Source: Cenococcum geophilum (Eukaryota). Taken from it: a stretch of 64,000 nt of DNA. The stretch covers positions 6,572,001-6,636,000 of the forward strand of contig CP158635.1 of NCBI GenBank assembly GCA_050273025.1, in the 5' to 3' direction. This document shows, in pieces, positions 1,436 through 61,488 of this stretch. Position 1 is the stretch's first letter, and every line of letters starts with the position of its first letter. Below the pieces are notes generated by a model. The model was not told where the DNA came from. It searched no databases and saw only the letters and a program-made list of their open reading frames with translations. A program made the position numbers and the translations under genes.

Positions 1436-4165
1436 TATATATGGCGTTAAAGTAGAAGGGCTAGTCTTTCCTAGTAAGGCGGTTAAGAGGCTAGGCGATT
1501 CTGCTATAGTTCTTAATAAAGTGTTAGTAGAAGCTACAGAAACCTAAAAATAATTATACCCCCTTTATAGTCCGTGGGGGCGTCTACTGGTTAATTGCGG
1601 CCGTTTTCTTTGGGTTGGCCTTAATTCTGTTTATGCTAATAATAAAACCTAAGTACTTTATATGCTTAATACTAAATTCTAACTTCTTAATATTGGCCTG
1701 GAGGCTAGCTTCGCGGAGCCGTTATAGGACTTTATAGACGTGCTCCTCGTATTCTAGTTTGTTCTCTAAGTATATTATAATATTATCTAGATAGGCCGTA
1801 TAGAAGTCGTTAAGGTAGTTAAAGAGTATATCGTTTAATTACCGCTAGTACGTAGCTGGTCCGTTAGTTAGTCTAAAAGGAAGTACCTTATATTTATACG
1901 TTCTGTAATAGGTCTAAAATATAGTAAAATCCTTAGACCTGGGGTTTATCCTAATTTGGTAAAAGGCCTGGCGGATATTAAGCTTAGTAAAAACCTTAGC
2001 TCTACTTATTTAGGTAAGAGTCTTATTAAGTAAGGGCAGCGGGTAGCAGTCCTTACGGGTTATATTATTTAGCTTATAGTAGTTAATGCAGAAGCGTAGT
2101 CCTCTATTTAGCTTTTTAATAAAGAGAATAGGTAAGTTAAAAGGGGCTTAGCTAGGCTTGATAAAGCCCTTATTTAGGTTATTAATAAGGTACTACTTTA
2201 TAGCCTATAATTTGGCAATAAACTATGGGTAGAGAGGGCTAAAGCTAAAGGTGCTTCCTTTGTCTTACTTAATCTTAATCTTATAGTCGTACGGTTAGTA
2301 GGGTAGAAGTATATTAGACGCTACCTTAGAGAATACGTCCTTAAATTTCCGGTATTAATTAGGTAGTTTTTATTCTACTAGTTCTTTATCTATAAGCCCG
2401 CTTTTTTATTTACTAAGCTTACTTTCTTTTTCCTTAATTATTTAGTTAATTTTGTATAGGCTAGTTGTAAAGGTAACGGTATTAGGCTGAACTAGGTTCT
2501 GGTAGAATCCTATAGCGCTAATATAGCAGATATTAACTAGTGGGAGGTCTGTAGGTTTCTTTAGCGTCCGTTAGGCCGTGGTTTGCGGTATAGGGTTTAT
2601 AGTCTTCCTTAGCTTACGTTCCATTTTCCGTAAGTTGTTCTTCCTATTTATTAGTTTAATATGGCGTCTAATGTCCCTAGCCTTTCTTTATAGCTGCGTA
2701 GGGCCTAGGTTCTTTATTAGGGACTTAGCTAGGCTACTACTAACTTCCTAAGTCTTTGGTGCGGGTGGTATAATATAGGTAGTTTAGGGGCGGCGTAATA
2801 TACGGATCTGTTACGGATTAAGCTGTATATCCTTCTTAAAAGCCTAGTCCCTACGCGTCGTATTGGCCTAGTAAACGGTGTCTATCTGCGGCCGTATAAG
2901 GTTTTCTATTGTAATACTAATCTCTTTTATAAAGGAAGGCGTTGGGGGTATAGTTTTGGGCTAGATAAGCTGCCTGTTCTATACGTTAAGCTATAAGCCT
3001 TAATAGGCTAGCTATTTTCTCCCTAAGATTATATTATGGCTTTTAAGGTCCGTAATAAGGAAGGGGACGTTATACTACCTTCGTCCGTTAACGCGGAGGT
3101 AGATCTGCAAGATAGTTATAATAGGTAGCCCTATCCGTCCGTTATAACCGCGAATAGGAATTAGTTTAGGTAGTTCTTTAAAGGGTGTATTTAAAAAGTC
3201 AGCTAGTTTTACAGCGCACTTTATATCAATTAAAGTAAAGGCATTTGCTCCTAAGTTAGCTAAAGCAAAGGTTAAAACTTAATATCTATTACGAAATAAA
3301 GTATAAGGGATAGTGCAGCTTTTTCTACTAACTAGCCGACCTAGATTAATATGTGACATATTAATCCCTTTTAACCCTAAAGAGGAGTCTTTCTCTAGGG
3401 TTCCTCTTTTTCCGGCTCTATACTATCCTCCTAAATTAACAGGACCTTATTTATCTTTGCCTTTATTAGGCAGTTCCTTATAGGGTAGCCTATTTAACCG
3501 CATAAGAAGTAAGCTCCTTAATTGCTAAGGGCCTATATATAGGGGTCGCTATATATAGGCTAGGTGTACACCGGGCCCATAGCAGGGGTAGCTATACGGC
3601 TAGCCGCTAGGTTAACTGTAGGGGTTGTCGATTATGCTAGGGCACTATAGGCCGTACTTATAGTACTTGCGGCCTAGTTTGTAAGGTTTTTAGTTTTTAG
3701 CCGATTAGCGCGTGCCTTAATTTAATAGAGGCCTTGGTTAATAGCTAGGCAATAGTCTATAAGTTTCTTTAACGTCTATGCCGTAGTATAAGCTAGTAAT
3801 ACGGCCCGCTATAGGTCTAGGGTAAGCTTATTAAAGAGGTTTGGCAGTAGGTCTTTCTAGGGGATTTAAGCCTATCTGGCTAGGTATAGAAAGTGGGTTT
3901 AAAAGGCTAAAAAGGTCTCCATTATTTTTATATTTAGGCTTTTATAGCTAAGGCGGGCGTTTTATACTTTAAAAGGGTCTTTATAAATAAAAGATAAGTA
4001 TTTAATTATTTCTTCTTTAGCGATAAAGGGGTCTGCTAAGTCTTTAGTATATCGCGGGCATAAATACGTTTAGGCGTCTTCGCTAGTACGGCCGAAAACA
4101 TAGGTCATTCTAGCTTAGGCGTTAGGGAAGTAGTCTATATTAACTTTAAGCTTATCCTATAATTA

Positions 4166-16800: not shown

Positions 16801-19800
16801 AATTGCCATTACCTTTATTTATTATCGGAACTTTATAAATAAGAAGTTCTTTCCTATATTATAAACAATTTAATTAGGGGGTCCTAGGTAGATATTAATT
16901 TAGTATAACTAAAGGGTATCCTATGCGTTCCTAGCTAATATATCCTTTAAGAATTATACGGCTTAGAAGAAGGTTAAGAAGTTAATAACTTAGAGTACTA
17001 GCTTGCCGCTAAGATATATAACGTTAACAATAATACAGAAGTTAAAGTTATAGTTATTTTTAAGGGTGAACTTAAATCGGCCAGGGGACCTCTAGTTTAT
17101 TTAGTAGTAGTAGTAATATTTTATAAGATGCTTAATTGCCTTAACCTTAACTTTATAGCCTACTCGCTAAAGAACCCTAAGTAATTAGTAAACTAATAGG
17201 TAACTAAAATAACGGTGTAGTTAGCATAACTTTAACTTAGTTAAATGGCTCTAAGCAATACTCTTTTCTAGTTATTAAAGGAGTAGCTAAAGGTAACCCT
17301 ATTTACGTATAATAGGCACCCAATTATTTCCCTATACAAGTATATTCTTAAGGTTATTAAGCTTAACGCCTAGTTTATTTATATCTTTAATATAAAATAG
17401 AAATAGGGTGTTTATAGGAATAATATAAAAAGTAATATACCCTAAGGGGGTTTAAACCCTAATTATGCTAAAAGAGATTATAATACCTTTGCCAAAATAA
17501 ATTATATATTAGCCTACCGTTAAATAGTTAATCTAAATAGAGCTATTAAGCTGCTAAAGGGCTTGAACTTAAGGTTCTCCTACTATAGATACTCCTACGG
17601 CTCTAGTATCCGGTATAATACCATAGAAGACATTTGCTAAGTATCTATTATTAAAGGAAAACGCGGAGCTCTTCTTTAGCTTATTAAAGATATCTAACTT
17701 CGTAATAAAATAGAGCGTAGATTGGTTATTAAAAACAGCGACAGTTTATATACTATTTACCTCACTATACTTAGTAAAGTATTAATTAGGTAAGTAGTCC
17801 TCAATTTCTATATCTATAAGGAGCTATTTAGTCTTATTAACCTTACCCTTAAGGTCTTCTACGTCTTTATATTAAACCAGGAAGCTTTAGAAGTAGGCTA
17901 TAATAACCTTATAATTTTTAACGTTTCTTATACTCTAACGGAACTTATTATATACCTCTTTTCACTTATTAAAGGAGTATCTAGTTAACTAGCAATTTAG
18001 CTTCTTACAAACATAGCACTTTTTTTAGTAATTACTTTAAAATAAACCTCCACCGGGACCTCTACGGTTGCCTTATAGTCAACGTTAATTATACCCTCTT
18101 TTATATTCCCTACTACGGCCACTATATATTTAATTAGTCTAGTTATAATTATATTAGTTAGAAATACTTAGTTAGGTAGGGTTTTCGGTATAGAACTATT
18201 AAAATTCTTATATTTATATTATAGTACTTACGGCGGAGCGTAGCTTAGTATATACTCCTTTAAACGTATCTATAGGTTTATATAACGCCAAGTTATACTT
18301 AGGAATGCTATAGTATGCTAAGATAACCTAGTCCCTTAGGCTGTTCTTATTTTAGTAAGTTTTGGTAAGGCTATATTAGATTTTTTAGAGTTTATTAAAG
18401 AGTAGTTAAAGGCACTCTAAATAAGTCTTTATTAAGTTAGAAGCGATAACTCTTTAAAACGTAGTCTTCCGCTATTTAAATATATAAAGCTAGCAATTCT
18501 TATTAGTTTTAAAGTAGGCTTTAGTAAACTAAAGCATTATATTAAAGCTATAGTTTTTACCCGTAATATAGTCGTAATAGAATGTTACTGCCTATCCCTT
18601 TAATATAATAGAGAAAGCGTAGTAGTACTAATAGTATTAAATTCTAACCTTATTGCAATAGTTATAAAAGACCTATAGTCTTACTCTAAGCATATTATAT
18701 AGTTCTCCTTTAAACTTCTTCTCTTTATCTAAATATACCTTTATTAGATTCGTAACTTCTTATAATAAAGGCTTACTAGTTAGCTAGAGTAAAGGAGGTA
18801 AAGGCGGAGCAACTCTAAGTAGGAGAGCACCTCTAGGTAGGGGAGTAGCTTTAGGTAGGGGGTTAGCGTTCTAGGGGTTTTAATATAAATTAAAGTTACC
18901 TTCCAAAAAATATAGGTTGTTTTTAGGTTTCCGTAGTTAACGTATAATCTTAGCTTCTGTTTATATTAGTTTATCTATACTAGTAATAACGGCCTAAATA
19001 TTACTAGTAATTAGGTTACTATTCTTAGTAATATATACCCTATTCCTATAGAGGAAGTCTTAAAAATCCTAAACAATATTAACGTTGCTGAGTACCTAGG
19101 TATTAGCAGTCCATCCCATAAAATTCTCCCTAAAATACTCCTATAGTTATAAGTCGGCGTAGTATCTATTTTAATAAAATGTAATATAGTGTAGGAGAAA
19201 GCCGTTAACTTATTTTATAGTATAAGTTATTATATTAAAGGCAAATTCGTTCTAGTCTTTATTAATAAGTTTCGCGTACTTAGCTACCCCTAGTAATAAG
19301 GAGTCTTTCTAGTTATTTAAAGTAGGCGTAGCCATGTTTTCGGAGGGAGGGAAGTATTATTAGTATAGGGATTGTTGTTTGGTACGCGTTCGTGATATAT
19401 ATTTATTATTTAGTACGCGTTTATGACATATATTTGCGATTATAGGGCTTAGGACTAGTTCTAGCCTTAAATTATAAAGACTTATAAAGTATATTATTCT
19501 GCGTAATAAACGCAAGAATTTATAATCTTAGAAAGGCTTAGGACCAGTTCTAGCCTTTAGATCCTTAGATTCGTAGAAGAGTTTTATTTAAGATTTAGGA
19601 CTAGTTCTAACCTTAAAATATAGCTTCCTCTAGCACGAGTAGCACTAGTATAGTAGCTTGTCTCTTCTTAATAAAATACCTTACTATTCTATAGTATAAC
19701 AGTAAAGTTAACCACTAATTAGTATTAGTTATATAAGGGGATATCACGTAGCTATAGTTTGTAGATAGTATAATAATTGTTCTATATTCTTCTTAAAAAA

Positions 19801-33063: not shown

Positions 33064-34351
33064 CAGTGCCAAGACATTAGTCTGTGCACACACGAATTCT
33101 CACCAAAATCGACACGACTTTGAACAATCGCACAACGCCGCAGCAATCAAATGCAGCCAAATCAGTATGAGATTATTTAATTACAGTTAATACTTTGTCT
33201 GCCAGCCACGTGCTTTTTTTACTGCTTCCAGCCTTCGGTCCATACTGTCGATTAACCGTCGCATAAGGCCTTGATCGATAGCCAACCACGCCTCTTTACA
33301 CGCCTCAATTAAACGCTCTAAATCCTCCTTACTTTGTCCCATCTGTTCAAGCTCTGGATGAAGCTTAAGAATCTTCCTTTTTAGTGCCAGCCAAAGGTGC
33401 TCAATTGGGTTAAGATCGGGTGAGTATGGAGGGAAATCTAGGGTCCAAACGCCGTGCGTTTCCAACCACTTCTTCACAAGATTCGACATATGGATTGGAG
33501 CATTATCCATTTGGTAGATATCCAAAGGCTCATAGATTGGCATGAGACCTTCTTCTAAGGCCCAAATATAGCTTCGGGCGCTATAGCCTTCCTTCCGCGC
33601 TAAAACGTCCCTTTCCATAGCAATCAACTCCGAACGGCCATCGTACCAAAAAGCTGCGTAGATCATCTGCGTAAGATCCTTTCCGTTGGACACCTCTGTA
33701 ATAAAGTCGTGATTCCACTTTTGTAGAGACGTTCTAAAGACCCAGACGGGCTTCTTTCCTGAGCCTCGTTCGTATGAACATTCATCAGAAAACTTAACAC
33801 GTCTCCAAGGGAAACCCTTGTACTTTCGAGCCCAGAGATACCTCAATCGAGCTACCGCTGGCGTCAGCTTTGGTCTCTTCTTGGCGAGCCACTTCGTAAT
33901 ATGGTGTTTTTTAAATAGACGTTGCAAAGTTCTATGCTCAACGGTAACCCCTGCAGCCTGACATTTAAGAGCTGCATAGTCGATTCGAGGATTCCTGCGT
34001 ACAATTCGAAGAAGTAGACGTTTCTGGCGTCGAGTAAGCTTTTCGGGCTGTCCGGGTCTGGGTAGAGATTTGAGCGTATGGTGGTTATTCCATCGATCGA
34101 TTGTATTGTAAATAACGCGACGACTGACGCGATATTTCGCCGCGATTTTAGTCTTCTCCTCCCCTGCCTCTACTGCACTAAGGATTCCAGCTCTTTGTAC
34201 ATCTGAAAGCTCTGCCCCAGGCCTTCGATTTCCACTAATTTCCGTACCAAACGAGCGTTGCATTGTAATGTTGTAAATGATTGAATTTGGTGACAATATT
34301 GCGATCGTGTGGTGTTGGTTCGCGTGTGCACAGACTAATGTCTTGGCACTG
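33064..34351 (-). mobile_element. Intact Tc1/mariner DNA transposon (1288 bp)
   Basis: 28-bp perfect TIRs CAGTGCCAAGACATTAGTCTGTGCACAC; TA TSD at 33062-33063 and 34352-34353; no RIP signature. Confidence 0.96.
33187..34263 (-). CDS. Tc1-family DD34E transposase (358 aa from the first ATG)
   Basis: Open frame with N-terminal HTH and catalytic motifs FSDE, DNAPIH and SPDLNPIEHLW, with 34 residues between the second D and E. The ORF track starts at a non-ATG codon at 34296. Confidence 0.93.
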   Translation of the reverse strand: MQRSFGTEISGNRRPGAELSDVQRAGILSAVEAGEEKTKIAAKYRVSRRVIYNTIDRWNNHHTLKSLPRPGQPEKLTRRQKRLLLRIVRRNPRIDYAALKCQAAGVTVEHRTLQRLFKKHHITKWLAKKRPKLTPAVARLRYLWARKYKGFPWRRVKFSDECSYERGSGKKPVWVFRTSLQKWNHDFITEVSNGKDLTQMIYAAFWYDGRSELIAMERDVLARKEGYSARSYIWALEEGLMPIYEPLDIYQMDNAPIHMSNLVKKWLETHGVWTLDFPPYSPDLNPIEHLWLALKRKILKLHPELEQMGQSKEDLERLIEACKEAWLAIDQGLMRRLIDSMDRRLEAVKKARGWQTKY

Positions 34352-35619
34352 TATATACGATAAGCTTTTATTATATCTTTAGGGCGGACCCATACTCCTC
34401 TGCAAAGCCTAAAAATAATTTAATTAAGTTATTAAACCACTCTAGGACATTATCTTGCTCTACGCTTTTAGGCCAGTTACGCCAGCCGCCCTTATTAACG
34501 TATAGTGGATTATCCCCTTCCTTACATTTCTTAAAAATAGCGGCGCTTACCTTTTTAAGACCTTCTACTTTCCTAAATAATGCTTTATATAAGCCAGGAA
34601 TCCCCACATAAAGAGGGCCTAGCTCCTCCTTTAAAACATTATCTGCGTATTTTCTATATTCGGACGAGTTAACAAAGCTGCTTATGTTATATAGATATAG
34701 GGTTTAAATATAGAATAGTAGCGGTCGGGGGGGAGGCGTGGACTCTATAATAGTAGCGTATACCTTTTCCCAAATAACTTCGTTAGATTTAATCCGAAGG
34801 ATCACATTTAGAAGAGGCAGGAACCGTTTAATATCGAAGTTATCGGAATTAACTACTAAATTAAGTCTTAATAGATTACTAAGGAGGTTTTTATTGCCGC
34901 TGTTGGATAGTAATAAATAAGAAGTAGGAAGGCTCTATAGAGTAAGTATTAGATTAAGTAAAATATCCTTTAGTCCTATAGGCGTTAGATAAAAACTTAT
35001 AATAGGTCTATTAATAGTTACCTTTATTACCTATCTGGTATAATAAGTCTAAAGAGCTAGGGATGCCTAGATTCTAATAAGTTAAGTTAAATAAATCGCG
35101 AAAGTCATTCAGCCCTTCCCTAATAGGCTTCGTTTTTAATCTAAAGAGATTCGCTATTACGGGCGGGCGCGCTAAGAGCTACGTTAGGAGGGCTAACGTA
35201 GTAGGCAGGTAGGTAGGCGAGAGGGGATTAAAGAGACCAGCATATAAGGATGGTATAATAGCAGAGAAGTAAATAAGTATAGGGAGGTCAAATATATATC
35301 GGGCGCGTCTTAAAATAAGGAAATAGCGAGAGAGAAAAGCGTAAGGGAGGAAGTAAGGTACGAGCGGAACGTGAGGAGGATTTAAAGGTTAGGCGTAGAA
35401 AAGTTAAGCCAATCTAACATGGCTCAGACTAAGGCTTCGCGGGGCTTAGTTAAATACTAAGCCACAATAACCTAAAGTATAGGAACATCGTTTGCAGTCC
35501 TAGTTATATAGGTTAAAAATACAGTGCGTATATAGGGTTCCGGTATTATTAGAAAGTTATAGGCAGCATTTATTAGTAATTATGGTTATTAGCTTTTAGT
35601 TTGTTTTATAACGCGTATA

Positions 35620-54647: not shown

Positions 54648-57600
54648 AATGGTTAAATACGTAGTGTCTTAGTGCTTTAGTAGCTGCTAGTTGCCTATAC
54701 GCAGAAGCTAGCTTAAAAGCGACTACTGTTAATAGGAACGCTAAAAATAGCTTTATAGGAGATCGGCGTTTTTAAGAGCGGGACAGGGCAAAAAAATCCC
54801 ATAGGTAGAAACCTAGAAATTGAGTATTAGAAGTGAACGATATAATAATAGGGGAAAATGCATACGTAGCTACTGTAGGAAAAGGGTTAAAGGAGTATAG
54901 TGTAGAAGGGAGGTTTTGTTATATAAGGGTAGTGCTTTTAGCAGAGGATAAGGATAAAGGTAGGCGGTAAACGTCTATAGCTTCTTAAATAATATTAGCC
55001 GCTAAGGGATATTTAGGGAGCTTTAAGAGGTACGTTATAGGGTTATATACGCGATTCTAGGTTTAGTGGGTAAGTAAGGGAGACCCTACCGTCCTTGGCA
55101 TACTTAGTATATTATAAAAGCGGTGACAAATATAGGTCTAAGTGAGGAGAAACTGCCTCCTAAAATAGGGGGGAGGAACCTCTAAATCCGGCTGCGTTTT
55201 CCCTAATAATAAGATTCTAGTAGGTATATATAATAATAATAATTCATTGCTTAACGTCCGATTCGGATCCCTATTGGGCCTACGCGGACTACTCCTTATT
55301 TATATATAGGGAGAAAACTTAACTTAAGAAAGACTTAACTTGAGAAAACCCCGTAATCTATCTCCCCGCCTTTTAAGACTCGCCTATAAGGCGCCTGCGA
55401 GGCGCCTGCGAGTCACCTATAGTGCTCCTACTACCTTACTTTTTAACCTCCTTAGGAACCACTGCTGCCGTAACAAGCCTACGGACGCGCTAGTATCGCA
55501 AACTTTACTCTACTACTATAGAGTCATTAGGGGGCGCCCGTTGCTCGCCCCCCTACCCTCTATTACTATTTCCCTTGCAACCTAGAACTGGTTTAGTATA
55601 TTTTAGCTAATAAGCCACTAGATAACCGCCTTAAGGCCTTTTTATATTAAGAGTAGTATATTATAGTTCTCTATACTAGCTACTAAAAGCATTACTTTTT
55701 AGTTAGTGTATAAGGGGCATAACAGTATTACATATTTTAGTGTCTATCTTAGCCAGCTATATTCGTATCTTAGGTTACCTACTAAGACACCTACCCAGTA
55801 GAGCTAGTCTTTTAGTCCTATTATTCCTATTCTTAAAAGTATCACTATTATATTTTCTGCCTTCGTTAGGCCTTCTTAGAGCCCTAGAGTGTTTACCCCC
55901 TATAGCGTTAACTATGCTACGGCTTAGGTTTCTCTTGCCTTAGTTAGCCTCTATACCTTTAACTCCTATACACCTCTTTAGCGTTAGTTTAACTAGTATT
56001 ATATTACAGTAGATAGTTTCCTAGCGTTCTTTCGTACTCTACTTTAGCTCCTTTCTCTCTCTTACTATTATCTTTACTGGCCTCTTATGCGTCTTTCTTC
56101 CTCCTCTATATAGGCCTAGGCCCTAAAGTAGCACTATTCTTCTTCTGCTTTCTTTACCTATTTCTCTAATATATCTTCCCTACTTTAGGGTTGTTAGTTT
56201 ATTCTCCTATAGGGCGCCCTAGGGTCCCTCTATAGTTTATTTAGGCGTGTCTTAATATACTTTATAATATTAGAGTTACGTTTATTTTAGGCCCTTTATA
56301 TTACAGCGGCTTTAATATATAGTTATAGGGGGGGAATATTGGCTTCCTTCTTAAGCAGTGCTGTGGCCGTTCGTTTATATCCGCCTATTATACTCTAAAG
56401 GCAGGCTATTTAGACCTTTTAGAGTAGTTTAAGGAGTGACTTAAGGGGGCCTTTCTTAGATTCTCTAATGGCCTAAATACTAGACCTATACGTCATGGTT
56501 AGCCAGACGGCTGCTATATATAGTAGACGTAACCTCTAGAAGCATGGGCCTTATATAGAGTTAACAATCCTAAATAATATAATATACTATACTTAGCCCT
56601 TATAGGCTGCTTGCGCCGTATATACGCTCTACTAGAGCTTACTATCTACCTATACTCCTAATACTCTTAGGCCCTAAACTAGTTAACCCCTAAAGCCTTA
56701 GATACGAATTATATACTAGAAATCTATAGATTGGTTGCGTTTTCTTATAAAATAGATTAGCTGGTATTTCTTTGGTAAGAATTAAACTCTATATTATCTT
56801 GCCCATTCTATATAGGTATTATATACTTTCTCTAGTGTTTTGCAATTCTCTGCGGCTATTAGCCCGTATATAATTAGGTTTATATTATCGACAAAGCCTA
56901 TCCCTTAGGTTGCCCCTTTTTTAAAGGAGTTAAGCAGGTTGCTTATAAAGAAAAGGAAGAGTATAGGCAAGAGGGGTGATTCTTATAGTATTCCTGTTGC
57001 AACTGCGATAGGGGGGCTTTGGTATCCGCTAAAGACTAGTAATATTTCTTTTTATAGGTAGTTATATATTAGCTAGTAATATAGTAGAGTTTAATATACC
57101 TGCTTATTTAAGCCTCTACCCTAGTTTTCTAGTGCTTTAGTCCTAGTCTGTAAGCAGTTAGCTGCTACCACTACTTATATAGGGAATTTCACCATTCTTT
57201 TGGATATTTTATAACGGGTTATTAGCCTAAGTACTAGTCTACCCCCTAGCAGTCTGTATAAGAGTCTCCTCCCAAAGTTAGTACGCTTTTGTATAGCTTG
57301 GGAGCCTTCCATAGCCTTTAGTTTTACGCCTTTTCTATTATTTCCGCTGGCATAGGTATAAGCTACTATTTCTAGGGGTCGCAACTCCCGTTTTACGCGC
57401 CTACTAGCGTAATCCTATAAAGGCGTTATAGCTATATCCTATAATATAGACTTAGGCGCACTTTCTATAGTTAGGCCTAGCCAAAACCTTCCTGCCTAAG
57501 TAACTCCTATTTACTTCTTAAGTATATCTTACTAGCGTACCGCCCTAGAGACGGATGGTTCTGTCTATTAATATACTAACACGTATATCCGTTCTCTTAA

Positions 57601-57964
57601 GCCACGTAATAGTTTCTTTAGCTAGGACGTAATTCTATCTACCTACTAGGTATACTAAGGGTTAGAGCCTAGCTAAGGGGTAAGGTCCTTAGAGCTAGCA
57701 GTAGCTACTACGCACTACGCCCCACAAGAGGTTCCCGTTTTACGTTACCTATAAGAGTTTCCTTATAATAGGCCGACCGTATTTTATAAGAGAGGGGCCG
57801 TAGAGACACTAAGTCCCGCACTAGATAACCTACTTCCCTCTCTCCTACTAACTAAGCTTATATCCCCCCCTTTTATAAGCTAGCCTATATCTCTAACTAT
57901 TAAGACCTTATCCAACTGGCCTGTGTTTCCCCTATAGCCTCCCCTATATATATATATTAAGTTA

Positions 57965-58400
57965 TATACACTACGCCTATTAAGACCCTTCTATGAGTCG
58001 CCTTATATATATGCGCATTAGGTTGCGTACACCACGCCTATTAAGACCCTCCTATGAGTTACCTATAAGTCGACTAAGTTGTACGCCATAGGGCCGTCGA
58101 AGCTAGCCTGTGTTTCCGCTACCTAGAGCTTTACCCGTATTTCCACCTCGTTAAGCCATCTAGTCGCCGTCACATCGCTATTGTGTTACTATTGCGTCGC
58201 TGTCGTCCAGGTCGCGCGCACTATGCCTATTAAGACCCTCTTTTAAGTCACCTAGGTGTACTAGATACTAGATAGGCCCTTATAGAGGGGCCTTAATAAG
58301 TTCTCTAGGTAGGGCCTTAATAAGTTCTTTGCGGTGGCCTTAGGGCCTTAATAAGTTTTATATAAAGTATCTGCGACGCGTTAACCTTAATAAGTTCTTA
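57965..58400 (-). repeat. Short dispersed repeats in the LINE 5'/ORF1 region
   Basis: (C/T)GCCTATTAAGACCCT occurs three times (~57975, 58035, 58225) and CCTTAATAAGTT four times (~58281-58396); on the minus strand they read like peptide repeats (EGLNRR, ELIKA). Confidence 0.65.
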
Positions 58401-58733
58401 TAAAAAAGGTTCCCTACGCCCTCGCCGTATCCTCTCGGTCTTAGAGCTAGTGTAAGCCTAAGGGTGTCCTATCGTACGCCTAGGGCGCGTCTACGTTAAC
58501 TGGCTAAATAAGGCTAGTTTCGGGCCTGGCTGCGAGCCAGGTAGTTATACGTTAGGCGGTTTTCGTATCCCAGTTTCCCTTAATAGCCCCCCTAGATAGT
58601 ATGGCAGGAGCCCTAAGTAAGGGCAGTAGGACTCCTGGTGTTATTAAGGGCGATATACGCGTTACAGGCTTAACACCACAGAGTCGCAACACCAGCGCGC
58701 TGCGCGCGCTGCGACGGCTCTCCTCCATCGCCT

Positions 58734-58818
58734 CTGCACTTAGCCATCATAGGGAATAATTTCCCGATGATGTTTCCACCCGCGGCGACGTGGACGCGTG
58801 CAGTAGGGCTTCGCGGGC
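58734..58818 (-). ncRNA. HDV-like self-cleaving ribozyme, apparently intact (85 nt)
   Basis: Minus strand: P1 GCCCGCG / J1/2 AAGCCCTA / P2 CTGCAC / P3 GCG / L3 TCCACGT / P3' CGC / P1' CGCGGGT (G1-U wobble) / P1.1 GG (pairs CC of L3) / AAA / P4 CATCATCGGGAA-ATTA-TTCCCTATGATG / J4/2 GCTAA / P2' GTGCAG. Confidence 0.92.
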
Positions 58819-59136
58819 TAGTAGGTATATATATATATACATCTTTATATCTATATCTCTGTATATATACGTAATATATACTCTAAATATTTTAGTTTAT
58901 ATGGTTGCTTAAGTTAAATATAGCTACCGATGCGCGTTCTGTATAGGTAAAGGTTAAGTACCGCCGACCCTTTTCCGGCGTTCCATCGGCAACCACGCTC
59001 AGCTTTCGCCGACCCACATCGGCGACCATGTTCAACTTTTTCCGGACCACGCTCAGCTGTACCCCGTCTCGCTTCCTGGGGTCCCACGTTAAGGCAGACC
59101 TGACCGCCTGCAGAATGGACAGCAGTTGAACCTAAC

Positions 59137-61488
59137 ATGGCACGCAGTCTTACTGCGCACGACTTGGACCTCAAGGCGACTTTTGATACCTACAAATCAC
59201 TTGCTGAACAGAAATGCGATAGATTGGCCGAGCAATACCTCTTGTCCTCCCTCCGTATAATTCTTGGCAGTTACCTGAATTACCACAATGGCAGGCTTGA
59301 GCCGCTTCTCTCGTCAAAGAGGACGCAGTATCTAGCCGGCATGCTTTATACACATTTTGGGCACCTAAAGGAAGACCTTCTTGAGGAACTCTTTCGAAGG
59401 GGAAGCGTATTTGATCCTCTTGCGCTCGCTACGATTGCGGACAGCGATCTGGAGCGATCAGTCGCCAAGAGATGGCTAGCTGTATTGGAGGAAGAAGACT
59501 TCAATGCGCTACTCGTCGACTTCGTCTACGAACTGGAGAGAAGATCCTATTGGACACACCGGGGGCATGTTGGCGAGATTTCTCATCTATCATCAATCAC
59601 AAGCGAACGAATAATGCAGGTTTCGGCTTCTACATCGGCTGGAGGCACCTATAGTATCAGAATGGTCCTCCCAAATCGTCTGCATAGCAAATTTTCAGGG
59701 TCAGCATTTGATACATCTTTGGCAAAAAGGCTCATACGACGAGCACTCTCAACTAGCTTCCGGCCAGCCAAACGTGACATCAATAACGGTGGAACAACAT
59801 TACGTAGGGTGGGGTTGGGGGGAGAGCCTATGCCTAAAAATTACCAACCTGCGGGAATGCTGAGAACAGTACATGAAGATTCCGAAGTCGATCAAAGGAG
59901 CCCTGGGTGTACCCCGACAACACCCAAAGCACAAGATTTCAGCATCATCCATTCGGACACTAAATTTGCTGGGCTTATGAAAGTAGGATCTGATTATGGT
60001 GATGATTTGTCTCAAACAAATACATTAGCACTCGAGTCACACAACTTAAACGGGGCTCAAGATTCGTGTGATCTTTCCTTTATATCCAGTGCCGACTGGG
60101 CCTACGTCAACACACCTACCGGGAACAATAGCACATCTACGCTAAGTAACTCTTCGACATTCCTCACTGCTAGGTCAAGTGTAGCAAGGGGCTCTCTGAC
60201 TCCTTTGGAAGTGGGTTACGGTAACAACACCAACAGAATTAGCACCGCTTCCAGTTATCTTTCTGCGCTATGTGGTACGGAGGAGTCCAATCAGCAAATC
60301 ACGAGCGAGTACCACCGATTATTGGAAGAAAGGAACCTCATTGTTGATCCTCTAATGGAGACCAACTGGTCAGAACGCGGTCAACACGCCGAATACGCAG
60401 CATATGAAAGAGGGGCAATCCCTCTTACTGTCGAGAAGCTACTTGGAAAGACTCAAGGTGCAGTCGTCGAGAGCGTTCGATGTAGACGTATACGCCTTGC
60501 ACGAAAGACAATCAAGTGCTATAAAAGGCCTGGCATGGCACGCAAAGATGCCATTCGAGAGGTGGAGCACCTTCAACGTGTTAAACACGCACACGTTGTA
60601 CGGGTAGTTGGAACCTACGTGATCGAGAACGAATTGGCTATCTTGACGTACCCAGTTGCTGAATGGAACTTGGAAGATTTCATGCAGTCAATATTCGAGG
60701 ACTGCGTGGACTCGATGCTCAAAGCTCCGTACTTGGAGCGATTCATTACCTGCCTGGCTTCAACTCTCAATTATCTACACTCCTTCCCGATCAAGCACAT
60801 GGACATCAAGCCTACGAATTTTCTAGTTAGGAATGTCCAGAACAGTACTGTCAACGAGCACGATCTGTACAAGATTTACATTACGGATTTCGGCATCTCT
60901 CGAGCATACGAATCTCTCGAAGACAGCGAAACTGGGAGCTGGACATCTTACACAAGAGCCTATGCAGCACGGGAGGTGATACTACAAGAATTCAGAGGTC
61001 TAAGCGCAGATGTCTTCTCGCTAGGCTGCGTCTATGCTGAAATATTAGCGGTCATTGCAGACGCTAAAGCACCTGATCTAACCTCGAGAACTTACTGGGA
61101 TAGCCTGCATGCTTGTCGAGAATGTCCGGAGATTGGGTTTCGCGCTTATCAGGCAGCTGTCCCGGATATATGTGAATGGCTGGCAGCACTTCCTCTTGAG
61201 CAACCCGAACTCGACTCGGCAAGAAATTGGAGTGTGAAGATGCTCGATCATGATCCCTCAAAGAGACCCTCTGCCAACGAAGTTGCGAATGACCCATCCC
61301 TCCCTTTTGGGTGTCCTGGATGCAAGAGCGGACCAGAGGCCTTCGAAGTTGCACCACCGTTGAACAATGAAACTAACATCTCCGTAACCACCGGATCTGC
61401 CAAAGATCAGGCCTCATCCGTGTCAGCGCCTTCTATGCCTAAAACACTCAAAGGCTTGATGGCCAATGACATTTTACTACCCGGTTGA
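59137..61488 (+). CDS. Ser/Thr protein kinase-domain protein (783 aa, C-terminal non-RD kinase domain)
   Basis: Uninterrupted ORF with normal dinucleotide composition; motifs LARK, REVEHL, HMDIKPTN, DFG, YAARE, DVFSLG. Confidence 0.9.
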   Translation: MARSLTAHDLDLKATFDTYKSLAEQKCDRLAEQYLLSSLRIILGSYLNYHNGRLEPLLSSKRTQYLAGMLYTHFGHLKEDLLEELFRRGSVFDPLALATIADSDLERSVAKRWLAVLEEEDFNALLVDFVYELERRSYWTHRGHVGEISHLSSITSERIMQVSASTSAGGTYSIRMVLPNRLHSKFSGSAFDTSLAKRLIRRALSTSFRPAKRDINNGGTTLRRVGLGGEPMPKNYQPAGMLRTVHEDSEVDQRSPGCTPTTPKAQDFSIIHSDTKFAGLMKVGSDYGDDLSQTNTLALESHNLNGAQDSCDLSFISSADWAYVNTPTGNNSTSTLSNSSTFLTARSSVARGSLTPLEVGYGNNTNRISTASSYLSALCGTEESNQQITSEYHRLLEERNLIVDPLMETNWSERGQHAEYAAYERGAIPLTVEKLLGKTQGAVVESVRCRRIRLARKTIKCYKRPGMARKDAIREVEHLQRVKHAHVVRVVGTYVIENELAILTYPVAEWNLEDFMQSIFEDCVDSMLKAPYLERFITCLASTLNYLHSFPIKHMDIKPTNFLVRNVQNSTVNEHDLYKIYITDFGISRAYESLEDSETGSWTSYTRAYAAREVILQEFRGLSADVFSLGCVYAEILAVIADAKAPDLTSRTYWDSLHACRECPEIGFRAYQAAVPDICEWLAALPLEQPELDSARNWSVKMLDHDPSKRPSANEVANDPSLPFGCPGCKSGPEAFEVAPPLNNETNISVTTGSAKDQASSVSAPSMPKTLKGLMANDILLPG

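What the first reader, a model, noticed from the sequence alone, without database searches (positions are those of the whole stretch)
58734..58818. Intact HDV-like ribozyme whose cleavage site defines the 5' end of a fungal LINE
Seen: all HDV helices (P1, P1.1, P2, P3, P4) can be paired, with the G1-U wobble, L3 UCCACGU and J4/2 GCUAA carrying the catalytic-position C. G1 (58818) directly abuts the 15-bp TSD. Known: HDV-like ribozymes process R2 and some other non-LTR retrotransposon RNAs out of longer transcripts, so the class itself is not new. Inference: this element's RNA was cut by its own ribozyme before insertion, and this copy, which escaped visible RIP damage, may still cleave.
Basis: partly seen in the sequence, partly recalled or inferred. 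Interest (0 to 1): 0.88.

Follow-up and report, generated by a model that had tools for sequence, protein, structure and literature searches.

The report
HDV-like ribozyme heading a fungal LINE
An 85-base RNA fold of the hepatitis-delta self-cutting type sits at the very first base of a dead, mutated jumping-gene copy, and dozens of related copies elsewhere start at that same base, which fits a known way such elements trim their own RNA.

Summary
On the minus strand, 58818-58734 folds into the full HDV-like nested double pseudoknot, and G1 abuts a 15-bp target-site duplication.

Rfam support is weak. RF00094 scores 31.1 bits against a gathering score of 50, and a consensus-like relative gets no hit.

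The strong evidence is comparative. In 78 related copies from metagenome contigs, similarity begins at this G. All 79 upstream flanks differ, and in five relatives a duplication of 11-14 nt also abuts G1.

The host element (55233-58818) is a RIP-riddled, internally deleted copy of an endonuclease plus reverse-transcriptase LINE family. It lacks the endonuclease and the first half of the reverse transcriptase.

The ribozyme core in this copy is fully paired. Its two or three RIP-type changes fall in the P4 loop and at a tolerated J4/2 position.

Self-cleavage was not shown. Covariation is weak, and RNA reads could not map the 5' end.

HDV-like ribozymes at LINE 5' ends, and HDV ribozymes in fungi, are both in print. 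My searches found no paper joining the two for fungi. I rate it a new member of a known kind, of moderate interest.

The parts
58734..58818 (-). HDV-like ribozyme, 85 nt. Elements: P1 58818-58812 / 58784-58778; J1/2 58811-58804; P2 58803-58798 / 58739-58734; P3 58797-58795 / 58787-58785; L3 58794-58788; P1.1 58793-58792 / 58777-58776; P4 58772-58745; J4/2 58744-58740.
   Evidence: In the alignment of 79 copies, 94.2% of pair cells are paired, against 32-54% when partners are slid.
58818..58818 (-). G1, the predicted first base of the cleaved RNA and the first base of the inserted element.
   Evidence: G in 78 of 79 aligned copies, and G-U with column 51 in 78 of 79. The 10 bases upstream differ in all 79 copies.
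58743..58743 (-). C at the catalytic (C75-equivalent) position of J4/2.
   Evidence: J4/2 reads GCCAA in 62, GCUAA in 16 (this copy among them) and GUCAA in 1 of 79 copies. Assignment of this C to the catalytic position is by analogy with HDV, recalled.
58819..58833 (-). 5' copy of the 15-bp target-site duplication.
55218..55232 (-). 3' copy of the 15-bp target-site duplication.
55233..58818 (-). RIP-degraded, internally deleted LINE copy, 3586 bp.
   Evidence: 100 stops in the reverse-transcriptase frame. RIP-type dinucleotide indices. Comparison with relatives.
58726..58728 (-). ATG at element position +91, six bases after the ribozyme and in the same frame as the reverse-transcriptase remnant.
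   Evidence: GCGATG is kept in 62 of 79 copies (61 at +91, 1 at +94), but the reading frame from it is short in every copy: at most 154 aa, median 70.
57051..57056 (-). Internal deletion junction (element nt 1763/1768). Relatives carry 0.5-3.3 kb more here, including the endonuclease and the first half of the reverse transcriptase.
55534..57066 (-). Remnant of the C-terminal half of the reverse transcriptase and the C-terminal region (frame 1, residues 585-1095).
   Evidence: phmmer best hit E = 1.6e-77; 1963 proteins at E <= 0.001. The degraded FVDD-type motif is read directly.
55233..55245 (-). 3' tail GAATTATTATTAT, an (ATT)n-like end of the element.
   Evidence: L071 ends with the same sequence and then a 14-nt duplication.

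Best explanation
This is the 5'-terminal HDV-like self-cleaving ribozyme of a fungal LINE family whose ORF2 has an apurinic-type endonuclease and a reverse transcriptase.

In active family members the element is transcribed, at least partly as read-through from upstream DNA. The nested double pseudoknot then folds during transcription and cuts 5' of G1. By analogy with HDV, the J4/2 cytosine and a bound Mg2+ catalyse the cut. The cut leaves a 5'-OH on G1.

The released RNA is the template for target-primed reverse transcription. Every full-length insertion therefore begins at G1, directly next to its target-site duplication.

The copy in the window is a dead product of that process. It is internally deleted and RIP-mutated, but its ribozyme core is still fully paired, so the 85-mer may well still cleave in vitro.

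Shown here: the fold, the core residues, the shared 5' boundary, the duplications, and membership of a LINE family. Inferred: cleavage itself, co-transcription from upstream, and any role of the ribozyme in translating from the AUG six bases downstream.
For: 1. All five helices pair and the core residues are present: the G1-U wobble, L3 U..CC..G, and J4/2 C-N-A-A.
2. RF00094 aligns over its whole length at 31.1 bits, E = 0.0078, matching UCC-CG, UGG, AACAU and AUGGCUAA.
3. 427 related stretches exist in metagenome contigs, of which 80 loci were fetched. In the 78 copies aligned, similarity starts at G1. All 79 ten-base upstream flanks are distinct, and only 3 of 2926 flank pairs reach 60% identity.
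4. Duplications of 11-14 nt abut G1 in L003, L028, L036, L039 and L071, as does the 15-mer here.
5. Variation shared among copies falls in the P4 loop, the P4 interior and J4/2 position 2. Core bins 1-40 have 0.001 non-RIP changes per site, against up to 0.07 in the next bins. One transversion pair A-U to U-A in P4 is compensated in 2 copies.
6. My descriptor recovers 40 of 80 family sites and only 2 other sites in 426,310 bases of loci, the number expected by chance.
7. Family members L025 and L066 carry Exo_endo_phos_2 and RVT_1 downstream of the same 5' region. All 7 full-length protein relatives scanned carry both domains.
8. RNA libraries hold the family's 5' region. In raw-read run X21 the first mate lies on the + strand about six times more often than on the minus strand, which fits sense-strand RNA.
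Against: - No cleavage assay was done.
- The Rfam score is below gathering, and the consensus-like copy L029 gets no HDV hit at E <= 1.
- Covariation is weak. The copies are close kin, most changes are RIP-type, and 11 to 41 of 500 shuffles reach the observed measures.
- Nested-only RNAalifold prefers P2 plus an extended P1.1 hairpin over P1+P3.
- RNA reads could not test the 5' end, because 58817-58900 was masked as repeat.
- Three contigs of about 140 nt, one in each of three RNA libraries, run about 44 nt upstream of G1. They could be uncleaved RNA or DNA.
- A transcription start at G1 from an internal promoter would give the same DNA pattern.
- No copy with an intact long ORF was among the 80 loci.
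Confidence: 0.8

Rival explanations
1. The shared 5' end is a transcription start from an internal promoter in the first bases of the element, as in several insect LINEs. The HDV-like pairing is a by-product, or serves another purpose such as RNA stability or protein binding, without cleaving.
For: The DNA pattern of a common first base with duplications abutting it does not tell a start from a cut. Covariation is weak. The Rfam score is below threshold and absent in L029. In L1Tc the same 77 nt is both promoter and ribozyme (PMC3185411 and PMC3383444, abstracts), so a promoter role is plausible here too.
Against: The predicted scissile bond coincides to the base with the element's end, and every core residue of the HDV fold is in place. 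A descriptor hit at one given position is expected about 3 times in a million. The core is the least variable stretch for non-RIP changes.
Confidence: 0.12
2. A once-active ribozyme that is inactive in this copy. The J4/2 C-to-U change, the altered P4, or misfolding into the UCCAC/GUGGA hairpin blocks cleavage, so only the family and not this locus has a working ribozyme.
For: This copy differs from the majority at J4/2 (GCUAA against GCCAA in 62 of 79) and in the P4 loop. RNAalifold finds a competing hairpin at columns 35-39 with 50-54. The element is otherwise dead.
Against: All core pairs are intact, with 0 broken in this copy. GCUAA is the J4/2 consensus of the Rfam HDV model and occurs in 16 of 79 copies. 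P4 is paired throughout in this copy except for one C/U mismatch.
Confidence: 0.2
3. Chance resemblance: a GC-rich 5' end that happens to satisfy an HDV descriptor.
For: 0.35 descriptor hits per shuffled window. A second, AT-rich hit lies at 17236. MFE z-score is only -1.83.
Against: Exact position at the element's first base. Conserved across 79 independent insertions. 40 of 80 family sites against 2 others in 426 kb. The Rfam alignment runs over the full model length.
Confidence: 0.03

Closest known systems
HDV-like ribozymes at the 5' ends of non-LTR retrotransposons (R2, R4/Dong, RTE, baggins, L1Tc/ingi)
   Same: The same fold class sits at the first bases of the element, with cleavage at the 5' junction defining the RNA and hence the insertion end. 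An open reading frame or AUG follows shortly after, and a role in translation start has been proposed. Sources: PMC3774820 passages; PMC6765202 passages; PMC3185411 abstract and one passage.
   Different: The host is a fungus, judged from the RIP signature and the run labels. The carrier is an endonuclease plus reverse-transcriptase LINE with a long 5' region (about 1.7 kb or more) and, in L025, an ORF1-like stretch with CCHC knuckles. It is not R2, RTE or ingi, and its clade was not resolved here. It is dispersed, not site-specific. Cleavage is not demonstrated.
Fungal HDV ribozyme variants of Li and Breaker 2017 (PMC5640933; abstract, section 7, Table S1 row read)
   Same: HDV-class ribozymes in filamentous fungi in many copies per genome: 230 in 26 species, with in vitro cleavage shown for two. 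They are described as having 'widely variable gene associations', as expected for a mobile element.
   Different: Their variant has a C-G pair at the cleavage site, a loop E in P4 and an extra base between P2 and P3. This one has the canonical G-U, no required extra base, and an ordinary P4 with a small internal loop. That paper does not use the word retrotransposon (0 occurrences). Its alignments (.sto files) could not be read, so overlap with this family is untested.
HDV genomic/antigenomic ribozyme (Rfam RF00094) and CPEB3 ribozyme
   Same: Nested double pseudoknot, a 7-bp P1 closed by G-U, a 3-bp P3, a 2-bp P1.1, and J4/2 of the form C-N-A-A. The window's GGCUAA matches the model consensus.
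   Different: Sequence similarity is too low for the family's gathering score (31.1 against 50). J1/2 is 8 nt long, with a possible P2 extension. The biological setting is different.

Membership tests
HDV-like self-cleaving ribozyme (fold class) | Nested double pseudoknot with P1, P1.1, P2, P3 and P4 in the canonical order | tested here: met
   In 79 copies, 94.2% of pair cells are paired, against 32-54% for slid partners.
HDV-like self-cleaving ribozyme (fold class) | Cleavage 5' of a G1 that forms a G-U wobble closing P1 | tested here: met
   G-U in 78 of 79 copies. The cleavage itself was not tested.
HDV-like self-cleaving ribozyme (fold class) | Catalytic C in J4/2 followed by N-A-A; L3 with U, CC (P1.1) and G | tested here: met
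   J4/2 is GCCAA or GCUAA in 78 of 79 copies; L3 is UCCACGU in 65 of 79. The residue roles are recalled from the HDV literature, not taken from a call.
HDV-like self-cleaving ribozyme (fold class) | Support for the helices from covariation | tested here: inconclusive
   8 pairs have a change on both sides, but 22 of 500 shuffles do as well. The copies are close kin and most changes are RIP-type.
HDV-like self-cleaving ribozyme (fold class) | Mg2+-dependent self-cleavage giving a 5'-OH and a 2',3'-cyclic phosphate | not testable with these tools
   Needs an in vitro assay.
Rfam RF00094 HDV_ribozyme | Score at or above the gathering threshold (50 bits) | tested here: not met
   31.1 bits. Nothing at gathering. 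No hit at E <= 1 for relative L029.
LINE 5'-processing ribozyme (R2 / RTE / L1Tc type) | Scissile bond coincides with the 5' junction of the element | tested here: met
   All 79 aligned copies start at G1 with distinct flanks. Duplications abut G1 in the window and in 5 loci.
LINE 5'-processing ribozyme (R2 / RTE / L1Tc type) | Element RNA in cells begins at G1 with a 5'-OH | tested here: inconclusive
   The zone 58817-58900 was masked in the read lay. Five contigs end 6-11 nt from G1 and three run on upstream, and contigs cannot show RNA ends.
Non-LTR (LINE) retrotransposon | Reverse transcriptase, endonuclease, target-site duplication, no LTRs | tested here: met
   The reverse-transcriptase remnant gives E = 1.6e-77. 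APE and RT are found in relatives L025 and L066 and in 7 of 7 full-length protein relatives. A 15-bp duplication flanks the copy. The window copy itself lacks the endonuclease. Pfam on its stop-masked frames found nothing.
Fungal HDV variant of Li and Breaker 2017 | C-G pair at the cleavage site; extra base between P2 and P3; loop E in P4 | tested here: not met
   G-U at the cleavage site. P2 can abut P3 without a spare base. No loop E consensus is seen in P4. The loop E consensus is recalled.

The most novel reading that the evidence does not exclude
A canonical HDV-like ribozyme is the obligatory 5' module of an abundant, transcribed fungal LINE family. Beyond trimming read-through RNA, it may protect the uncapped end and start translation at the conserved AUG six bases downstream. 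The many 'orphan' HDV ribozymes reported in fungal genomes with variable gene neighbours would then likewise be LINE 5' ends, making ribozyme processing a general strategy of fungal LINEs.
Probability: 0.3. Interest if true: 0.6.

Novelty: new member of a known kind. Interest (0 to 1): 0.42.

Why it matters
- It extends ribozyme-defined 5' ends from animal and trypanosomatid LINEs to a fungal LINE family.
- It gives a base-exact marker for annotating full-length fungal LINE copies in RIP-scrambled, AT-rich regions.
- It offers a likely explanation for HDV-class ribozymes scattered through fungal genomes.
- It does not change what is known about the ribozyme class or about LINE biology.

Tried and rejected
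- **Rfam.** At gathering threshold on the whole window: no match.
- **Pfam.** On the three stop-masked frames of the element: no family. Homology came only from phmmer.
- **Own genome.** None is held, so copies in the same genome could not be counted. Self-BLAST found no second copy in the window.
- **Covariation.** Too little independent variation to prove helices.
- **RNAalifold.** It cannot draw the pseudoknot and returned P2, P4 and a P1.1-based hairpin.
- **Rfam on L029.** No HDV hit, so the window's 31 bits owes something to copy-specific bases.
- **Sequencing runs.** All holders had small word shares (0.13-0.26) and none held half of the words.
- **Read lay.** No place where many molecules begin or end was reported, and the flank 58817-58900 was masked. 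Contig ends near G1 are also what a repeat boundary gives, so I drew no conclusion on the RNA 5' end.
- **Search for intact ORFs.** In 31 copies with at least 2.5 kb downstream, only one frame of 200 aa or more was found. The ORF from the AUG at +91 is short everywhere, so a coding role for the 5' region is unproven.
- **Exact-match duplication search.** 9 of 25 testable loci gave a match of 8 nt or more. Those of 8-10 nt may be chance in AT-rich DNA.
- **Cluster look-up for organism or element names.** Only 'hypothetical protein' came back. The LINE clade was not resolved.
- **Papers not held.** Webb 2009, Webb and Luptak 2011 and Ruminski 2011. Whether they list this fungal family is unknown.
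- **Earlier findings of this scan.** None.

Full report
**What is at the coordinates.** Read on the minus strand from 58818, the sequence is GCCCGCG AAGCCCUA CUGCAC GCG UCCACGU CGC CGCGGGU GG AAA [P4, 28 nt] GCUAA GUGCAG. This gives:
- a 7-bp P1 closed by G1-U;
- a 6-bp P2;
- a 3-bp P3;
- a 2-bp P1.1 between the CC of L3 and the GG after P1;
- a P4 hairpin (CAUCAU-C-GGGAA / AUUA / UUCCC-U-AUGAUG);
- a J4/2 with C-U-A-A.

The nested part of this (P1, P3, P4) is the minimum-free-energy structure: -30.2 kcal/mol, z = -1.83, with 8 of 200 shuffles as stable.

**Is it more than chance?**
- *Covariance models.* Rfam finds nothing at curated thresholds in the 64-kb window. In a 351-base search, RF00094 (HDV ribozyme) aligns over its full length at 31.1 bits, E = 0.0078, below its gathering score of 50. 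A consensus-like relative (L029) gets no HDV hit at E <= 1. The covariance-model evidence is therefore weak and depends on the copy.
- *Descriptor.* A loose structural descriptor of my own finds this site and one AT-rich site (17236) in the window. It gives a mean of 0.35 hits per dinucleotide shuffle.
- *Position.* The fold alone is thus only mildly improbable. Its position is what counts, because it begins at the first base inside a target-site duplication. The 15-mer TATATATACCTACTA lies at 58819-58833 and again at 55218-55232. It delimits a 3586-bp insertion at 55233-58818 that ends in GAATTATTATTAT.

**What the insertion is.**
- *Damage.* All three forward frames are full of stops, 100 in frame 1, and the region has strong RIP-type dinucleotide bias. 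Pfam sees nothing in the stop-masked frames.
- *Homology.* phmmer against 1.84 billion representatives gives 1963 hits at E <= 0.001, the best at 1.6e-77. All align to residues of about 585-1095 of frame 1. The seven full-length relatives scanned (1105-1196 aa) each carry Exo_endo_phos_2 and RVT_1.
- *Internal deletion.* BLAST against related loci shows that element nt 1-1763 and 1768-3586 are separated by 0.5 to 3.3 kb in relatives. In L025 and L066 that interval holds the endonuclease and the first half of the reverse transcriptase. L071 shares the window's 3' end and has a 14-nt duplication 4608 bp from its G1.
- *Conclusion.* The window copy is an internally deleted, RIP-mutated remnant of an APE-RT LINE family. 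I did not resolve the clade.

**The comparative evidence.**
- *Source of the copies.* Short predicted proteins that happen to read through the ribozyme in two frames led to the related DNA. There are 427 related stretches in metagenome contigs, of which 80 loci were fetched. Two loci are cut by contig ends and two copies are 5'-damaged. The remaining 78 copies from 77 loci were aligned with the window.
- *Shared boundary.* Similarity begins at G1 in every one. All 79 ten-base upstream flanks differ. Only 3 of 2926 pairs of 40-nt flanks reach 60% identity. G1 is G in 78 of 79 copies.
- *Duplications.* Exact duplications of 11-14 nt abut G1 in L003, L028, L036, L039 and L071. In all, 9 of 25 testable loci gave an exact match of 8 nt or more.
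- *Specificity.* The descriptor recovers 40 of the 80 family sites and only 2 other sites in 426,310 bases, which is the chance expectation.

**Structure support from the alignment.**
- 94.2% of pair cells are paired, against 32-54% when partners are slid by 1 to 3 columns. Covariation is weak: 8 pairs change on both sides, and 11 to 41 of 500 shuffles reach the observed measures.
- The copies are close kin, and most differences are C-to-T or G-to-A.
- 45 of 79 copies keep every core pair and the J4/2 C, and 26 of 79 have a core identical to the majority.
- Shared, non-RIP variation is confined to the P4 loop, the P4 interior and the second base of J4/2. A P4 pair changes from A-U to U-A in two copies.
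- Non-RIP changes run at 0.001 per site in positions 1-40, against up to 0.07 in neighbouring bins. A few downstream bins are equally quiet.
- This pattern fits a constrained core with a tolerant P4. It is not proof.

**This copy's state.**
- Against the family majority, the window's ribozyme has no broken core pair and one core-adjacent change: J4/2 is GCUAA where 62 of 79 copies have GCCAA.
- Its P4 loop ATTA differs from the ATCG of its nearest relatives by two RIP-type transitions.
- RIP-type changes hit 2 of 75 G/C sites in nt 1-120, against 33 of 167 in nt 121-400. The ribozyme is therefore relatively spared rather than untouched. The core has few CpA/TpG sites, which may explain this (inference).

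**RNA evidence.**
- RNA libraries labelled fungus or root metagenome, and one raw-read RNA run, contain sequences 80-95% like the element's 5' region.
- In the raw-read run the first mate lies on the + strand at depth 5-20, against 0-3 on the other. That fits sense-strand RNA if the library is stranded. Only 1 of 54 reads is 99% or more alike, so these RNAs come from other copies.
- The flank 58817-58900 was masked as repeat, so read starts at G1 could not be scored.
- Five contigs end 6-11 nt from G1, and three contigs of about 140 nt run about 44 nt upstream. Contigs cannot show RNA ends. The in vivo 5' end remains open.

**Mechanism.** The best reading is that active family members are transcribed with upstream sequence, and the ribozyme cuts 5' of G1. 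The trimmed RNA is then copied by target-primed reverse transcription, so that insertions start at G1. I put confidence in this at about 0.8. A conserved AUG lies six bases after the ribozyme (62 of 79 copies), and a possible three-pair extension of P2 ends two bases before it. This recalls the translation-start role proposed for LINE ribozymes (PMC6765202, passages), but the frame from that AUG is short in every copy. The main rival is a transcription start at G1 from an internal promoter. The two need not exclude each other, since L1Tc has both (PMC3185411, PMC3383444, abstracts).

**Comparison with what is known.**
- HDV-like ribozymes at the 5' ends of R2, R4/Dong, RTE, baggins and L1Tc are established (PMC3774820 passages; PMC6765202 passages).
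- HDV-class ribozymes in fungi are also in print: 230 variant representatives in 26 species, two of them shown to cleave, plus 11 canonical ones found earlier (PMC5640933; abstract, section 7 and one supplement row read).
- That paper speaks of 'widely variable gene associations' and never uses the word retrotransposon.
- The present ribozyme is of the canonical type (G-U, ordinary P4), not that variant.
- Five full-text searches found no paper tying an HDV-like ribozyme to a fungal LINE. Three key papers (Webb 2009, Webb and Luptak 2011, Ruminski 2011) are not held and may bear on this.

**Verdict.** The copy itself is a relic. I rate it a new member of a known kind and of moderate interest.

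Noticed in passing
window 58809-58807 with 58732-58730 (alignment A3 columns 20-22 with 100-102): GCC in J1/2 can pair with GGC just after P2. This would extend P2 past a small internal loop and end two bases before the ATG. It is kept in 77-78 of 79 copies but never varies informatively.
   Followed up: partly
window 59104-61488 (+): An intact 794-aa open frame with a protein kinase domain (Pkinase, E = 2.7e-30) starts about 285 bp from the element's 5' end on the opposite strand. The RIP-type, AT-rich block ends about here.
   Followed up: partly
window 1-58000: Almost the whole window is AT-rich (GC 0.25-0.41). TpA/ApT is 1.4-2.1 and (CpA+TpG)/(ApC+GpT) is mostly 0.23-0.58. Only two open frames of 150 aa or more are present, the other at 33187-34419 (-).
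   Followed up: no
window 58290-58370 and 58000-58260 (-): The element's 5' region contains short internal repeats. A motif of about 16 nt (AACTTATTAAGGCCC-like) occurs three times, and a 46-nt pair is 80% alike at element nt 565-610 and 754-799.
   Followed up: no
L009 2060-3066, L045 4458-5937, L077 6539-7332: In three loci a second partial unit, starting near element nt 267-275, follows the first 5' region. This suggests a tandem duplication or a nested 5'-truncated insertion in one subfamily.
   Followed up: no
L025, frame 1, about 2.1-2.3 kb after G1: A stretch with two CCHC-like cysteine/histidine knuckles (CYYCGYC...H..C, CVNCH...H...C) lies upstream of the endonuclease. It looks like an ORF1 remnant that the window copy lacks. 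Pfam gave no family.
   Followed up: no
protein P0174 (cluster of P0016): A 1150-aa endonuclease plus reverse-transcriptase LINE protein is filed in NCBI as a hypothetical protein of a Verrucomicrobia metagenome-assembled genome. It is probably a eukaryotic contig binned with a bacterium.
   Followed up: no
window 17121-17236 (-): A second hit of my loose HDV descriptor. All its helices are AT-rich and it has no element boundary. It fits the 0.35 chance hits expected per window.
   Followed up: partly
alignment A3 column 10 (base -1): The base before G1 is A in 48, T in 18, C in 9 and G in 4 of 79 copies, and TA precedes G1 in 29. This may reflect target preference of the endonuclease or simply the AT-rich flanks.
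   Followed up: no
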